DNA of 4,197 nucleotides from the IMG/VR virus record IMGVR_UViG_3300029250_000151, positions 1-4,197 of that record. One strand, written 5' to 3'. The notes under the pieces are model-generated. The model saw only the letters and a list, made by a program, of their open reading frames with translations, ran no database searches and was not told where the DNA came from. A program made the position numbers and the translations under genes. Positions within the stretch are counted from its first letter, which is position 1, and the number at the start of each line of letters is the position of its first letter. This document shows positions 1-4,197 of the stretch, one piece after another. The DNA comes from a virus. Taxonomy: Duplodnaviria; Heunggongvirae; Uroviricota; Caudoviricetes.

Positions 1-2264
1 GCGGCGTCTGCAATTTTTGCCTCCGAAAACCAGAACTCAAACTGCACCGTCGGGTCATACACCGCAAGACGCGGTACCGCCGTTATCTGAAAATACCCCG
101 GCGTCAGTTCAACACCGGCAGGCGCTGCCGGTGCGTTAATCCGGAACGTGGTGGTGGCGGGTTCGCCCTGCTGGCCATAGCTGTTAATCGCCCTGACCGT
201 CAGGGTGTATTCCCCGGGAGGCAGGCCACTGAAACGGTGCTCCGTATCGGCAGTGATGGCGGTGGTCAGCAGGCGGCTGTTCTCACCGCTTCCACTGGTC
301 AGGCGCAGACTGAAGCGCACGCCCTTCACCACCCTCGGCGTGTCCCATTTCGCCAGCGCCAGATACTGGCTGTCAGCCGCGCTCACCTCCACCGTCAGGT
401 GCTGTACTGCCGGTGGGATAACGCTGTTCAGGGTGCCTGACTGCGGCTCAAAGCGGGCTCCGTTATCCACAATGGCTTCTTTTTCCGGTACGTGCTGCAC
501 CGCCGTGATGGCAAAGGTGCCGTCCGTGTTTTCCCGGATGGCCACACAGCGGAACAGGCGACGGCGCAGTGACGGCAGGGAGAGTCCCCACACCCCGTAT
601 GTCTCCACACCATCAGGCAGGGTACTGACCTGTATCCGGTCCGGCGCGGGGTGTGCGGTGATGTCCACACTCACCGGCTTACCGCTGCCGTTAATCAGGT
701 TCACCGTCGATGCACCTGTCCCCGGAAGTGTCACTTCACGGTCCAGCGTCAGGGTGCGGGTGGCAGCATCAATGGACAGGACACGTCCGCCGGTCAGGGT
801 TCCGGCATAGTCGTTATCACAGATTTCAATGATGTCACCGGGTGTGTGCCGCAGCCCCTGAGACCCGAGTGTGAAATCCACCGTCTGCGTTTCCAGCAGT
901 TCGGTCTTTATCACCCACAGCCCGGCACGGTGGGCCTGACCGCGGCTGGTACAGCCGAACGCGTCCATCTTCAGCAGGTTGCGTCCGTAGCGCAGTATGG
1001 CTTCCGGGTCTTCCACCAGTTCCGTGGAGGTCTGCCAGCCGTTCTGCGGGTCGGTGTAATTCACCTCCACCGCCGTGTGCCGGTCCTTCAGGGCACTGAA
1101 GCTGTAGCGGAACCCCACGCCGTTATCATCCACCACCACATCGCTGTTGGTGTACGGCCACACCACATCCGACGTGCGGTCCTGAACGAACGTCAGCGTC
1201 TGACCGTTCCATACCGGCATACAGCGCATCGCAGAGCAGAAATCACTGAGAACGTCCCACGCCTTACGCTGTTGTGCCAGGTACGCATTAAAGGTCATCC
1301 GCGGCTCTGTGCCCCCGAAACCATCCGGGACCGTCTGGTCGCAGTACTGCCCGATGGCATACAGCGCCCACTTGTCCACATCCGCCGCTCCCAGGCGTTT
1401 TCCCATGCCGTAGCGCGGGTGAGTCAGCATGTCCCACAGACACCAGGCCGGGTTGTTGCTGTATGCCGGTTTCAGACTGCCGTCCCAGATACCGCTGTAC
1501 GTGCGTTTTTCCGGGTCATAGTTTGACGGCACCTGGATGATGCGACCGCGGATATGGTAGTTCACCGTCATCTGCTGGCCACCAAACTGCTCCGCATCCA
1601 CCTGCATCCCCACAATGGCCGTGTTCGGGTAGCACTGTTTCACATCGATGATTTCGGTGTATGACGACCACAGCGTTCTGTTCTGCAGCTGGTCCGTGGT
1701 GCTGTCCGCCGTCTCCCTGACCATCCGGATGTTAAAGGGGCGGGGAGGCAGATTATCCAGAATCACCGACGCCAGGAACTGCGAGGTGGTCTTGCCGTTA
1801 ATGGTGACATCCTTTTCCGTCATCCATTTACCACCACGCTCAAGCTGAATCAGCAGGCGGACAGACGTCGGATTACGGTCACCCTTTGACGTGGTCTCCA
1901 CCAGTGACTGCACCCCGAAGGTCACCCGCAGGCGGTCAATGTTCGCTGACGTAATGGTGCGTGTCACCGGTTTTGCCTTCGTCACCTCCACACCCAGTAC
2001 AGTTTCAGCTCCGGAGGACTCAAAGCCTTCCGGTGGTGTCTGCTCCTGCTCCCCGGCACGCCAGACGGCGGTCACACCGTGTATCACGGGATTACCGTCC
2101 GTGTCCGTCAGCGGGGTTTTGTTCACCAGAATACTCTGCAGTCCCTTCACCGGACCTTCCACCGGTCCCTCACCAATGGCATCAATCACACTCATCATCT
2201 GCGTGGATTTGAGATTATCCTTCGCCTCACGCGGTGTGTGCCCCTTGCCGCCCCCTTTACCCAC
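1..2264 (-). CDS. J: Host specificity protein J (tail tip / central tail fibre protein), N-terminal ~754 codons; 3' end lies beyond the window start
   Basis: Reverse-strand translation from GTG at 2264 reads [39 protein letters not shown]... and continues without a stop to position 3 (...[30 protein letters not shown]...[27 protein letters not shown]...[19 protein letters not shown]). This resembles lambda gpJ as I recall it (N-terminus [20 protein letters not shown]). A Shine-Dalgarno-like GGAGAGGGGGACAGA sits immediately upstream of the GTG, and there is no in-frame ATG upstream. Absent from the ORF track because its stop is outside the window. Frame was spot-checked at 1431..1442. Confidence 0.9.
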
Positions 2265-2273
2265 TCTGTCCCC
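2265..2273. repeat. 9-bp direct repeat TCTGTCCCC, left copy (forms the J ribosome-binding region on the minus strand, GGGGACAGA)
   Basis: Exact 9-mer TCTGTCCCC at 2265..2273 and again at 2471..2479, bracketing the AT-rich block of the I-J spacer. Confidence 0.4.
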
Positions 2274-2307
2274 CTCTCCTGTCTGATGTCTGAATCTGTT
2301 TATGCCC

Positions 2308-2339
2308 AAAAAACAACAGGCACCCCGGAGGATGCCTGT
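2308..2339 (-). terminator. Rho-independent terminator oriented for minus-strand transcripts, ~45 nt upstream of the J start
   Basis: Minus-strand RNA: ACAGGCA-UCCUCCGGGG-UGCCUGU. The 7-bp perfect stem (2316..2322 / 2333..2339) can extend to ~10 bp with a UCCG tetraloop, and is followed by UGUUUUUUGGG (2305..2315). On the plus strand the same hairpin is preceded by an A-run and not followed by a T-run, so it is unidirectional. Confidence 0.5.
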
Positions 2340-2376
2340 ATCATGACTGAATAAAAATTCTGAATATCTTCACATT

Positions 2377-2404
2377 TTCACAAACTGACTGTGGCGCGTA
2401 TAAT
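2377..2404 (+). promoter_or_regulatory. Candidate sigma70-type promoter: -35 TTCACA (2377..2382), 16-bp spacer, -10 TATAAT (2399..2404); predicted start near 2411
   Basis: Perfect consensus -10 hexamer and a 5/6 match to TTGACA at an acceptable 16-bp spacing, with an AT-rich tract upstream (ATAAAAATTCTGAATATC). Plus strand, so directed against the minus-strand tail operon. Confidence 0.4.
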
Positions 2405-2413
2405 TTCGCTGCG

Positions 2414-2467
2414 TTAGTGTTTTTTTTGCCCGAGTAACAAAAACAACTCCTTAACATTAATCTTCAT
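2414..2467 (-). CDS. Hypothetical 17-aa mini-ORF (MKINVKELFLLLGQKKH), mutually exclusive alternative to the plus-strand sRNA
   Basis: ATG at 2467..2465 is preceded by GGGGACAGACAA, a second copy of the J-type Shine-Dalgarno region. The ORF contains a Leu/Phe run (TTG TTT TTG TTA CTC) and an A8 tract, with stop TAA at 2416..2414. Very short, so it could easily be fortuitous. Confidence 0.12.
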   Translation of the reverse strand: MKINVKELFLLLGQKKH

Positions 2468-2470
2468 TTG

Positions 2471-2479
2471 TCTGTCCCC
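2471..2479. repeat. 9-bp direct repeat TCTGTCCCC, right copy
   Basis: Exact copy of 2265..2273; it overlaps the left arm of the 2477..2501 hairpin. Confidence 0.4.
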
Positions 2480-2509
2480 GCAGCTCCGCGATCACTGCGG
2501 GATTTTTTT
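2477..2509 (+). terminator. Rho-independent terminator oriented for plus-strand transcripts, abutting the I stop codon
   Basis: CCCGCAG (2477..2483) pairs with CTGCGGG (2495..2501), with an 11-nt loop CTCCGCGATCA, then A and TTTTTTT (2503..2509). On the minus strand the hairpin is preceded by the A-run, so it is not a terminator for the I transcript. Confidence 0.5.
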
Positions 2510-2514
2510 ATGTT

Positions 2515-3195
2515 TTATCCCTGTCGACCAATAACCACCACCTTTCCGCCCCCGCCTTCATCACGGGTGCTGATGTCCTGAGAGATACGTCGTGAACCAA
2601 CCAGCATTTCACCGTAGGGCACCGGCATCGGGTTGCCCTGGGCAATCATGTTGTCCAGTGAGGAAAAGTACGTGTTCTGTCTGCCGTTATCCGTTGCGCG
2701 GTAATCCGGTGTTTTTGCCTTCGGGGCCAGCATCTGTGCCACACCACCCAGAATCATGCTGGCTCCAAGTGAAAACAGCATCGTGGTGGCAGAAAAACCA
2801 CCGGCTGCCAGGGCTGAACCCCATAACGCCATTGATGCCCCGGCAGTGAAGAAAGAGCCCACGATGGCTGCCGCCCCCAGCACAATCTGCAGTCCACCCT
2901 TTCCGGCCCCGGCCAGTCGCGGCACAATGTGGATGACCGTTCCCTCACCCAGTGGTTCGTGAAGACGGGCGTACACCGCCTCCGGTGCCGTGTCATCACC
3001 GGCAATACGTATCTGGTACCAGCCTTCGTTCATCTGACGGCGAAAGCCCGGCATCTGCATCGACAGGGCGCGGATGGCTTCCGCTGCCGTGTTCACATAC
3101 AGGCTGAGGCGGCGGCCAAATCGTTGTAAATTCCCGTGAAGGCAGATGCGTGCCAGTGGCGGTGACGCCAGACAGAATGCGTTCGTCGTTGCCAT
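2515..3195 (-). CDS. I: Tail assembly protein I (lambda gpI family; ubiquitin-like N-terminal region plus Gly/Ala-rich hydrophobic C-terminal region)
   Basis: 226-aa ORF MATTNAFCLASPPLARICLHGNLQRFGRRL...QNTYFSSLDNMIAQGNPMPVPYGEML... resembles lambda gpI (223 aa) as recalled. ATG at 3195..3193, TAA at 2517..2515. The start lies 103 nt inside the 3' end of K, the same overlap I recall for lambda K/I. Confidence 0.9.
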   Translation of the reverse strand: MATTNAFCLASPPLARICLHGNLQRFGRRLSLYVNTAAEAIRALSMQMPGFRRQMNEGWYQIRIAGDDTAPEAVYARLHEPLGEGTVIHIVPRLAGAGKGGLQIVLGAAAIVGSFFTAGASMALWGSALAAGGFSATTMLFSLGASMILGGVAQMLAPKAKTPDYRATDNGRQNTYFSSLDNMIAQGNPMPVPYGEMLVGSRRISQDISTRDEGGGGKVVVIGRQG

Positions 3196-3836
3196 TTTTC
3201 GGAATACCTCTCTCGTTTGCTCAGTTGTTCAGGAATATGGTGCAGCAGCTCGCCATCACCACAGTAAATGGCGGCATGATTCGGCACCGATGAACCAAAA
3301 CAGCACAGCAGCACATCGCCCGGTTGTGCTGATGACAACGGCACCTGATACAGCCCTGTGGCCTCCAGATTATCCAGGTACAGGTTCTGGCCGTTGCGCC
3401 ACCAGTCATCCTCGCGATGAAAATCCGGCATTTCAGTCCCCGCCAGATGATAAGCATCCCGGAACAGCGTGTAACAGTCCGTCACCCCGTGCGCAAAGCG
3501 CCGTCCTGTCAGATGTGGCACACAGCGGAATTTGTGAATGTCACCCCGGCAGACCAGCCACCAGGGCAGGGCACTTTTTATCTGCAGCCGCCGGTCAGCC
3601 TCGCTCAGCCAGGGCAGCCCACCGGGATGACTGTGGACCAGTGCCACAATCTCCCCCTGCATCTCTGCCCGCAGCCAGTCTTCCGGGGCAATACGAAAAT
3701 ATGCCTCAGGCTCTGCAGAGATATTCACACAAGGGATATACCGCTCCCCCTCCGGCGTGCTTATCACGAAGCCGCACGACTCCGCAGGCGCACACCGCCG
3801 GGCATGCGCCAGAATCGCTGATTCAGTCTGTGTCAT
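3093..3836 (-). CDS. K: Tail assembly protein K (lambda gpK family; JAMM/MPN metalloprotease-like motif plus NlpC/P60-like region), 247 aa
   Basis: Translation from ATG 3836..3834 is MTQTESAILAHARRCAPAESCGFVISTPEGER... It contains HSHPGGLPWLSEAD, an exact HxH-x7-S-x2-D JAMM motif (~3594..3635), and a downstream Cys/His region (DCYTLF...NHAAIY...LLHH) consistent with NlpC/P60. Stop TGA at 3095..3093. The start is 10 nt after the L stop. The ORF-track extension to a TTG at 4097 runs through L in another frame and is rejected. Confidence 0.88.
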   Translation of the reverse strand: MTQTESAILAHARRCAPAESCGFVISTPEGERYIPCVNISAEPEAYFRIAPEDWLRAEMQGEIVALVHSHPGGLPWLSEADRRLQIKSALPWWLVCRGDIHKFRCVPHLTGRRFAHGVTDCYTLFRDAYHLAGTEMPDFHREDDWWRNGQNLYLDNLEATGLYQVPLSSAQPGDVLLCCFGSSVPNHAAIYCGDGELLHHIPEQLSKRERYSEKWQRRTHSVWRHRHWHASAFTGIYNDLAAASACM

Positions 3837-3846
3837 AAAACAGGAT

Positions 3847-4197
3847 TTACTGCGAAAGTTTATTGATGGAAAGGAAACCGCCAAAATTGCCGACATTCCT
3901 GCGCAGTTCACACCCGCGCATGCACTTGCTGCATCTGTCCTTACGGATATCCGTGGTGGGGTTGTCGAACTCATCCGCCACCGCAGGACCGTTATACCCG
4001 CATTCATCTCCCCGGTAATCCCACATACAGGTGTTCGCCAGCATGATGCGACCGGGAAACAGCGCACCGTCCGTCTCGGTCGGTGTCGCCAGCACAAACG
4101 AGGCCGTCATGGCTGTCAGCTCCGACATCTGCTCCACCACCCAGCGGTCACTCAGCTCCTGCTCCGGGTCCGCCTCCGGATTGCCCGCAACGAAATT
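3847..4197 (-). CDS. L: Minor tail protein L (lambda gpL family), C-terminal 116 codons; 5' end lies beyond the window end
   Basis: In-frame translation from the window edge: NFVAGNPEADPEQELSDRWVVEQMSELTAMTASFVLATPTETDGALFPGRIMLANTCMWDYRGDECGYNGP...CSKCMRGCELRRNVGNFGGFLSINKLSQ, resembling the lambda gpL C-terminus including its Cys cluster. Stop TAA at 3849..3847. The 97-aa ORF-track call is an internal GTG start of this gene. Confidence 0.9.
   Translation of the reverse strand, partial: NFVAGNPEADPEQELSDRWVVEQMSELTAMTASFVLATPTETDGALFPGRIMLANTCMWDYRGDECGYNGPAVADEFDNPTTDIRKDRCSKCMRGCELRRNVGNFGGFLSINKLSQ

What the first reader, a model, noticed from the sequence alone, without database searches (positions are those of the whole stretch)
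2305..2339. Strong intrinsic terminator inside the late tail operon, immediately upstream of the J ribosome-binding site
On the minus strand a 7- to 10-bp GC-rich hairpin followed by UGUUUUUU lies between I and J, ~45 nt before the J GTG. Transcription coming from L-K-I would be attenuated before J unless RNA polymerase is antitermination-modified, as by Q in lambdoid late transcription. This could make J expression depend on antitermination, or set J stoichiometry, or it could be the 3' end of a minus-strand RNA derived from the spacer. I found no convincing minus-strand promoter inside the spacer.
Basis: seen in the sequence. Interest (0 to 1): 0.5.

Follow-up and report, generated by a model that had tools for sequence, protein, structure and literature searches.

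The report
Conserved terminator hairpin before tail gene J
A real, conserved transcription-stop hairpin lies just upstream of the phage tail-tip gene J, next to a known small-RNA gene (PasB) on the opposite strand; it is a fairly ordinary feature whose most likely job is to stop polymerases that lack the phage's anti-termination factor.

Summary
On the minus strand (the L-K-I-J operon strand) a 10-bp GC-rich stem (2339..2316, loop UCCG) is followed by UGUUUUUU, 52 nt before the J GTG (2264). It is stable in context and rare by chance.

Its plus strand encodes the Hfq-dependent sRNA PasB (EcOnc22/23/24 in EHEC), with its own promoter (2377..2404) and terminator (2475..2509).

The hairpin lies outside the core of that cassette. 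The PasB cassette also occurs with an unrelated hairpin, with a sodC gene, or with no hairpin.

Across 145 copies the stem stays paired (C-G, U.G or U-A at one pair). The wobbles favour the operon-strand RNA, and the U tract is kept while the J leader after it diverges. Lambda, which has no PasB, has its own hairpin between I and J. Distant lambdoids have none.

Best reading: an intrinsic terminator that Q-modified late polymerase reads through and that stops unmodified polymerase before J. Function is inferred; no 3'-end data could be reached.

It is a new member of a known kind, of modest interest.

The parts
2316..2339 (-). Terminator stem-loop: ACAGGCAUCC-UCCG-GGGUGCCUGU, 10 bp including one U.G pair.
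   Evidence: In 145 copies (8 distinct stem-loops, within 16 distinct 63-nt hairpin-region sequences) 98% of cells are paired.
2306..2315 (-). U tract UGUUUUUUGG. RNA 3' ends are expected near 2310..2308.
   Evidence: GTTTT is invariant in all 16 distinct variants, while the sequence after it diverges into at least 4 leader types.
2265..2305 (-). J leader, with Shine-Dalgarno AGGAGAGGGG at 2280..2271. It holds two copies of a CAGACAT repeat whose number varies between loci.
3..2264 (-). Gene J (tail tip attachment / host specificity protein). It starts with GTG at 2264 and is cut by the window end.
   Evidence: Pfam FNIII-A_GpJ, Ig_J and Phage-tail_3. The N-terminus [22 protein letters not shown] matches lambda J.
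2515..3195 (-). Gene I (tail assembly protein I), including the stop codon at 2515..2517.
   Evidence: Pfam Lambda_tail_I, 1.4e-15; 69% identical to lambda I.
2377..2404 (+). PasB promoter TTCACA-16-TATAAT, with an AT-rich upstream region at 2350..2376. It begins 37 nt from the hairpin.
   Evidence: 11 of 12 matches. The same promoter is found at the PasB locus of PPompW_132418.
2427..2509 (+). PasB sRNA as annotated in E2348/69 (83 nt), the same family as EcOnc22/23/24. It is antisense to the tail operon. The TSS predicted from the -10 is near 2411.
   Evidence: 81 of 83 bases identical to NC_011601 1466343..1466261. The PasB northern probe equals window minus strand 2503..2481. The EcOnc22/23/24 probe is complementary to the + strand at the homologous Sakai site.
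2475..2509 (+). PasB intrinsic terminator: CCCGCAG...CUGCGGG followed by AUUUUUUU.

Best explanation
The feature is a Rho-independent (intrinsic) terminator on the sense strand of the lambdoid tail operon. It lies between the antisense-oriented PasB sRNA cassette and the ribosome-binding site of J.

**How it most likely works**
- During lytic growth the late polymerase, modified by the phage Q antiterminator, reads through it, so J is made.
- Any polymerase that is not Q-modified forms the 10-bp hairpin at the U tract and releases its RNA about 45 nt before J. Such polymerases would come from leaky or internal promoters in a lysogen, or from upstream morons.
- This keeps J and the genes beyond it untranscribed in the prophage state. 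It also gives every unmodified sense transcript that crosses the PasB gene a defined end.

**Shown:** the anatomy, stability, rarity by chance, conservation with pair-preserving changes, a strand bias toward the sense RNA, and the link to the I-J junction rather than to the PasB cassette core.

**Inferred:** that it terminates in vivo, that Q overrides it, and what benefit this brings.
For: - **Terminator anatomy and stability.** The anatomy is canonical, the fold is strong and it persists in context. Only 1.6% of shuffles give an equal anywhere in the window.
- **Pairing is conserved.** Across 145 copies (16 distinct hairpin-region sequences, 8 distinct stem-loops) the stem is 98% paired. One pair runs C-G / U.G / U-A and two pairs have G.U variants. 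14 of 500 shuffles reach the observed score, and slid registers pair only 34-48%.
- **The sense strand is favoured.** Four distinct wobble variants (29 copies) would be C.A mismatches on the other strand, against one variant (2 copies) the other way. For the window's variant the dG is -18.2 on the sense strand and -12.2 on the antisense strand.
- **The U tract is kept.** It is invariant, while the J leader immediately after it falls into at least 4 unrelated types.
- **Only one context.** All copies in 1.76 Mb of fetched loci sit at the I-J junction.
- **Lambda has an analogue.** Lambda-type phages lack PasB but keep a different conserved GC hairpin plus U-rich tail in their 60-nt I-J gap.
- **Q read-through is established.** Read-through of terminators across the late operon is established for lambdoid phages (PMC7547250; PMC2629481).
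- **P22 precedent.** The moron just upstream of the P22 tailspike gene is thought to modulate late read-through into that gene (PMC2629481).
Against: - No transcript 3'-end data could be examined; the supplements of the Sakai Term-seq study are not held.
- Covariation rests on one truly compensatory pair, and the copies are related by descent and recombination.
- The hairpin is dispensable. Junctions with a sodC insert (3 of 73 loci) and one deletion variant lack a sense terminator near J. Proteus, Morganella, Providencia and Xenorhabdus lambdoids have I-J gaps of only 2-14 nt.
- The standard scanner does not flag the lambda or type B hairpins as terminators, so the 'positional analogue' argument is softer than it first looks.
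- Tail genes are almost silent in EPEC lysogens, so there may be little unmodified transcription to stop.
Confidence: 0.55

Rival explanations
1. It is a partial attenuator that works even on Q-modified polymerase, or an intercistronic RNA-stability hairpin. Either way it lowers J mRNA relative to the upstream tail genes and so sets stoichiometry. J is a very large protein needed in few copies per virion.
For: The position is directly before the receptor-binding protein gene. Different hairpins occupy the same place in lambda-type and type B junctions. In P22 the moron 5' of the tailspike gene is thought to affect the level of tailspike protein.
Against: Q-modified polymerase is generally terminator-resistant (established knowledge). 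A pure stability hairpin would not need the U tract, yet the U tract is invariant. The hairpin is absent from sodC-type junctions and from distant lambdoids that still assemble tails.
Confidence: 0.17
2. It is the 3' end of a discrete sense-strand RNA that is fully complementary to PasB. That RNA would be either the 3' UTR of the I mRNA or a short RNA from a weak promoter overlapping the PasB -35. It would act as a cis-antisense partner or sponge of PasB, with the hairpin plus U6 tail serving as an Hfq-binding module.
For: Any sense transcript ending here carries the whole anti-PasB sequence. The hairpin plus six U, preceded by an AU-rich stretch, resembles an sRNA 3' module. Weak candidates exist: a TGn-GAAAAT extended -10 ending at 2374, and TTGTGA-15-CAGAAT. 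A promoter-like site inside K is shared with lambda.
Against: There is no promoter with 9 or more of 12 matches on that strand. The extended -10 is not conserved in the Sp15 or WGPS2 variants. No minus-strand Hfq-CRAC peak is listed at the Sp15, Sp14 or Sp11 spacers. There are no RIL-seq entries for this intergenic region, and sense transcription in EPEC is very low.
Confidence: 0.12
3. It has no current function. It would be a leftover terminator from an earlier resident of this insertion hot spot, or a recombination-joint relic carried along with the J leader.
For: The I-J gap is clearly a mosaic hot spot: PasB variants, two hairpin types, sodC and an IS insertion. The hairpin can be lost.
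Against: Pairing is preserved through one compensatory and several wobble changes, with a strand bias. The U tract is invariant next to highly divergent leaders. A mismatch-bearing recombinant is rare, at 2 of 145 copies.
Confidence: 0.14

Closest known systems
Intrinsic terminators inside lambdoid late operons that Q-modified RNA polymerase reads through (tR' and the terminators that flank morons)
   Same: A GC-rich hairpin plus U tract on the late-operon strand, next to an inserted and independently transcribed cassette. It is expected to stop only unmodified polymerase.
   Different: It is not tR'. It lies about halfway down the tail-gene block. It is not the terminator of the neighbouring cassette: PasB has its own terminator on the other strand. 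Its in vivo activity has not been measured.
P22 'ant moron' (immunity I region with the sar antisense RNA) between gene 16 and the tailspike gene 9
   Same: A variable insert containing a small antisense RNA gene sits in the late operon directly upstream of the host-recognition protein gene. It is thought to influence how many late-promoter polymerases reach that gene (PMC2629481, citing Adams, Brown and Casjens 1985).
   Different: The phage type, genes and sequences are all different. P22's insert encodes protein regulators (mnt, arc, ant), whereas this one encodes only an Hfq-dependent trans-acting sRNA.
PasB (EPEC E2348/69) = EcOnc22/23/24 (EHEC Sakai) prophage sRNA
   Same: Same locus. 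The window's plus strand at 2427..2509 is 81/83 identical to PasB, and both published probes match.
   Different: That RNA is on the opposite strand. The finding's hairpin is not part of it, and the PasB papers read here do not mention it.
Phage lambda I-J intergenic hairpin (GAAACCGCC-UGCG-GGCGGUUUU GUCAUUU)
   Same: Same position, between the I stop and the J ribosome-binding site, on the sense strand. It is GC-rich with a U-rich tail and is conserved among lambda-type phages of Escherichia, Shigella and Citrobacter.
   Different: The sequence is unrelated, the stem is shorter (dG -13.1), the U tract is interrupted and partly paired with an upstream A tract, and there is no sRNA gene beside it. 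The standard scanner does not call it.

Membership tests
Rho-independent (intrinsic) terminator | GC-rich stem-loop of about 5-14 bp with a short loop | tested here: met
   10 bp, 6 G-C pairs, 4-nt loop, dG -18.2.
Rho-independent (intrinsic) terminator | U-rich tract immediately 3' of the stem | tested here: met
   UGUUUUUU directly after the stem. It is invariant across variants.
Rho-independent (intrinsic) terminator | The hairpin forms within the natural transcript context | tested here: met
   Present in the MFE and centroid folds of the whole 251-nt spacer; z = -3.47 in a 55-nt context.
Rho-independent (intrinsic) terminator | RNA 3' ends map to the U tract in vivo or in vitro | not testable with these tools
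   Term-seq exists for Sakai (PMC7547250, GSE143631), but the data and supplements are not held.
Q-antiterminated lambdoid late operon element | Read through by Q-modified polymerase but not by unmodified polymerase | not testable with these tools
   Q, qut and PR' are outside the window. This is inferred from established lambdoid biology.
Moron (independently transcribed insert in a phage operon) | Present in some related phages and absent in others at the same junction | tested here: met
   Lambda-type phages have a 60-nt gap without it. Proteus and Morganella types have gaps of 2-14 nt.
Moron (independently transcribed insert in a phage operon) | Own promoter and own terminator | tested here: met
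   For PasB: TTCACA-16-TATAAT plus a hairpin and U7 on the + strand. Expression from prophages is published.
Moron (independently transcribed insert in a phage operon) | The finding's hairpin belongs to the PasB cassette | tested here: not met
   The PasB cassette (97.6% identical) also occurs with an unrelated hairpin, with sodC, or with no hairpin. The homology break lies about 14 nt before the stem.
PasB / EcOnc22 sRNA family (plus strand of the spacer) | Sequence identity to the published RNA and probes | tested here: met
   81/83 identity. The PasB probe matches exactly. The EcOnc22/23/24 probe is complementary to the homologous Sakai site. No Rfam family exists for it.
Structured RNA under selection (covariation) | Compensatory base changes that keep the pairing | tested here: inconclusive
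   1 of 10 pairs has changes on both sides, 2 have wobble changes and 6 are invariant. 14 of 500 shuffles reach the score. The strand bias in the wobbles supports the sense RNA.

The most novel reading that the evidence does not exclude
The I-J junction of E. coli lambdoid prophages could be a two-strand regulatory node. The sense-strand terminator would turn leaky, non-antiterminated tail-operon transcription into a defined Hfq-competent RNA: the I 3' UTR, carrying a full-length anti-PasB and ending in the hairpin plus U6. That RNA would titrate PasB. Conversely, PasB would pair with the late mRNA on induction and direct cleavage between I and J. The terminator and the sRNA gene would then form one switch linking host regulation by PasB to the lysogeny/lysis state and to J supply.
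Probability: 0.1. Interest if true: 0.6.

Novelty: new member of a known kind. Interest (0 to 1): 0.3.

Why it matters
If it works as proposed, this hairpin marks a boundary within the tail operon of a very common prophage family. The spacer occurs in about a third of complete E. coli genomes, with up to 10 copies each.

Upstream of it, stray transcription is tolerated. Downstream of it lie J, the tail fibres and cargo genes, which would be transcribed only by antiterminated polymerase.

It also matters for reading PasB/EcOnc22 biology. The sRNA gene is nested antisense in a late transcript, and both strands of the cassette have their own stop signals.

For annotation, it shows that the 'empty' I-J spacer holds at least three functional signals that current records leave unannotated.

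Tried and rejected
- **Rfam.** No family matched anywhere in the window, even at E <= 1. PasB is not in Rfam, and AgvB/AsxR do not match here. My first guess from memory, that this might be AgvB, was wrong: AgvB lies elsewhere in Sp10/Sp17.
- **EcOnc22 peak position.** The tabulated Hfq peak (2902714-2902774) falls on the hairpin if read in NC_002695.2 coordinates. That is a version offset of about 128 bp, checked with the EcOnc42 probe. The peak belongs to the PasB homologue.
- **Sense-strand promoter in the spacer.** None has 9 or more of 12 matches. The weak candidates are not conserved.
- **Small ORFs on the sense strand.** The candidates are MKINVKELFLLLGQKKH inside anti-PasB, and M-I/T-Q-A... 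running through the hairpin. Neither is credible: there is no RBS, the frame is broken by A-run length changes or the ATG is missing in variants, and the stop position depends on the leader type (read).
- **Terminator for the plus strand, or a DNA cruciform.** The plus-strand version has no U tract and carries a C.A mismatch in the window's variant.
- **Mobile repeat (REP-like element).** All copies lie in this one context.
- **Conservation profile.** The profile is partly circular, because my anchors selected the conserved parts, so it is not used as evidence.
- **Data that could not be reached.** The Term-seq supplements were not held, and the 1985 P22 paper could not be read. Two literature searches for a described lambda I-J terminator found nothing relevant.

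Full report
**What is in the window.**
The window carries lambdoid tail genes on the minus strand (Pfam):
- L, partial, 3850..4197
- K, 3096..3836
- I, 2518..3195, with its stop codon at 2515..2517
- J, starting with GTG at 2264 and running off the left end

The gap between I and J is 250 nt (2265..2514). In phage lambda it is 60 nt.

**The observation.**
The scanner finds one strong terminator-like site on the minus strand. Its stem is 2339..2316, with 10 pairs, 6 of them G-C, and a 4-nt loop. The tail is TGTTTTTTGG.
- The hairpin alone folds at -18.2 kcal/mol.
- In a 55-nt context it folds at -20.9, with z = -3.47, and 0 of 200 shuffles fold as well.
- It is kept in both the MFE and the centroid fold of the whole spacer.
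- With a stringent definition it is the only such site in the window, and only 8 of 500 dinucleotide shuffles produce any.

The same scan shows a near-consensus plus-strand promoter, TTCACA-16-TATAAT at 2377..2404, and a plus-strand terminator at 2485..2510.

The northern probe for PasB is identical to the window's minus strand at 2503..2481. PasB is an 83-nt Hfq-dependent sRNA of EPEC prophage PP6 (PMC8550237, Table S6). The annotated PasB maps to 2427..2509 (+) with 81/83 identity.

In EHEC Sakai the homologous spacers of Sp15, Sp14 and Sp11 are the Hfq-CRAC peaks EcOnc22/23/24. These give an RNA of about 85 nt that is destabilised in a delta-hfq strain (PMC4104026, Table S2). Their probe is complementary to the plus strand just upstream of the plus-strand terminator. 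The tabulated peak coordinates are in the older genome version. I checked an offset of about 128 bp with a second probe, so the peak lies on PasB and not on the hairpin.

A 2026 preprint describes PasB as embedded in an operon of phage structural genes. It does not discuss its promoter, its antisense relationship to the operon, or any sense-strand terminator. Rfam has no family for it.

**Is the hairpin part of the PasB cassette? No.**
I classified 73 IMG/VR loci whose gpI is 96-99% identical to the window's. In the sense direction each junction reads anti-PasB, then the PasB promoter region, then a break in homology about 14 nt before the stem. What follows the break is one of these:
- **Type A:** the window's hairpin, in 24 loci.
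- **Type B:** an unrelated 13-14-bp hairpin, CCCCGGTATC...GATACCGGGG, with U-rich tails on both strands, in 45 loci.
- **Type B deletion:** type B with the hairpin deleted, in 1 locus.
- **Type C:** an antisense Cu/Zn superoxide dismutase gene, in 3 loci (Pfam Sod_Cu), with no sense terminator near J.

PPompW-type phages have a PasB region 97.6% identical to the window's but the type B left flank. Every type A copy in 1.76 Mb of fetched loci lies in this one context.

**Conservation and pairing.**
Anchoring on the PasB-promoter flank, so that the stem was free to vary, gave 145 copies and 16 distinct hairpin-region sequences.
- The stem is paired in 98% of cells.
- Pair 8 is C-G (8 variants), U-A (5) or U.G (2), with one C.A recombinant.
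- Pairs 1 and 9 have G.U variants, and six pairs never vary.
- 14 of 500 column shuffles reach the observed covariation.
- Slid registers pair only 34-48%.

This is supportive but thin.

A strand test adds to it. Four distinct variants (29 copies, including the window's) carry G.U wobbles that would be C.A mismatches in the complementary RNA, against one variant (2 copies) the other way. For the window's variant the dG is -18.2 on the sense strand and -12.2 on the antisense strand.

The GTTTT of the U tract is invariant. The J leader that follows it falls into at least four unrelated types.

**Wider comparison.**
Lambda and lambda-type prophages of Shigella, E. coli, E. ruysiae and Citrobacter have no PasB. 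They do keep a different conserved hairpin, GAAACCGCC-nnnn-GGCGGUUUU with a U-rich tail, in their 60-71-nt I-J gap.

The standard scanner does not call this hairpin, and it does not call type B either. Its greedy stem absorbs the U's. I therefore count them as positional analogues of lower confidence.

More distant lambdoids (Proteus, Morganella, Providencia, Xenorhabdus) have I-J gaps of 2-14 nt and no hairpin. A hairpin before J is thus common in the Escherichia-group lambdoids but is not essential.

**Expression data within reach.**
In EPEC grown in the laboratory the tail genes are almost silent (baseMean 2-15), while PasB is abundant (480-1080). No RIL-seq entry exists for a sense-strand RNA of this gap. 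No minus-strand Hfq peak is listed at the Sakai spacers. Term-seq and dRNA-seq of Sakai exist (PMC7547250), but the tables are not held.

**Mechanism.**
The best-supported reading is an intrinsic terminator acting on the operon-sense RNA. Lambdoid late operons are transcribed from PR' by Q-modified polymerase that ignores terminators (PMC7547250; PMC2629481), so this site should not limit J in lytic growth. It should stop polymerases that are not Q-modified before they reach J.

One possible source of such polymerases is a promoter-like site inside K that lambda shares (GTTACA-17-TATCAT), though that match may only reflect coding conservation.

The rival readings are:
- partial attenuation or an RNA-stability role that tunes J stoichiometry
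- the 3' end of an anti-PasB RNA
- a relic with no function

The closest precedent is the P22 'ant moron'. It includes the sar antisense RNA, lies directly 5' of the tailspike gene, and is thought to affect how often late polymerases read into that gene (citing Adams, Brown and Casjens 1985).

**Verdict.**
The hairpin is real, conserved and probably functional, but it is of an ordinary kind. The terminator appears to belong to the I-J junction rather than to that cassette. The spacer occurs in 1799 of 5426 complete E. coli genomes and is unannotated there.

Noticed in passing
window 2377..2509 (+): Complete gene for the known Hfq-dependent sRNA PasB / EcOnc22, with promoter, body and terminator, lying antisense in the I-J spacer. 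It is unannotated in public genome records and absent from Rfam. The TSS predicted from the -10 (about 2411) is about 16 nt upstream of the published 5' end (2427).
   Followed up: yes
L004 1053..1160 (+) (PPompW_132418; type B I-J junction): A second promoter-like site (TTGCCA-18-TATCCT) lies about 50 nt upstream of a strong bidirectional hairpin, in tandem with PasB. It could be a further antisense sRNA of about 75 nt.
   Followed up: partly
L022, L024, L036 (I-J spacers of 851-903 nt): An antisense Cu/Zn superoxide dismutase (sodC) gene is inserted between the PasB promoter and J. The I-J gap is a hot spot for antisense cargo.
   Followed up: yes
window 2281..2294 (-) and homologous J leaders: A 7-nt tandem repeat, CAGACAT, between the terminator and the J Shine-Dalgarno sequence varies from 2 to 4 copies between loci.
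   Followed up: no
window 3475..3447 (-); L008 294..322 (+); L004 2324..2296 (-): The same promoter-like site, GTTACA-17-TATCAT, lies inside gene K on the operon strand in the window, in lambda and in PPompW. It could be an internal Q-independent promoter, or simply reflect coding conservation.
   Followed up: no
L092-L105 and others: Lambda I-J DNA appears at about 1x coverage in assemblies of unrelated organisms (Pseudomonas, Bradyrhizobium, Enterococcus, Chromatium and others). This is most likely lambda control-DNA contamination of those assemblies.
   Followed up: no
L006 1..1163 (Stx2a_WGPS2): A transposase gene (IS) is inserted just downstream of the hairpin, replacing the J leader and the start of J.
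   Followed up: no
window 3096..3195 (-): K and I overlap by about 100 nt in different frames, as they do in lambda.
   Followed up: no
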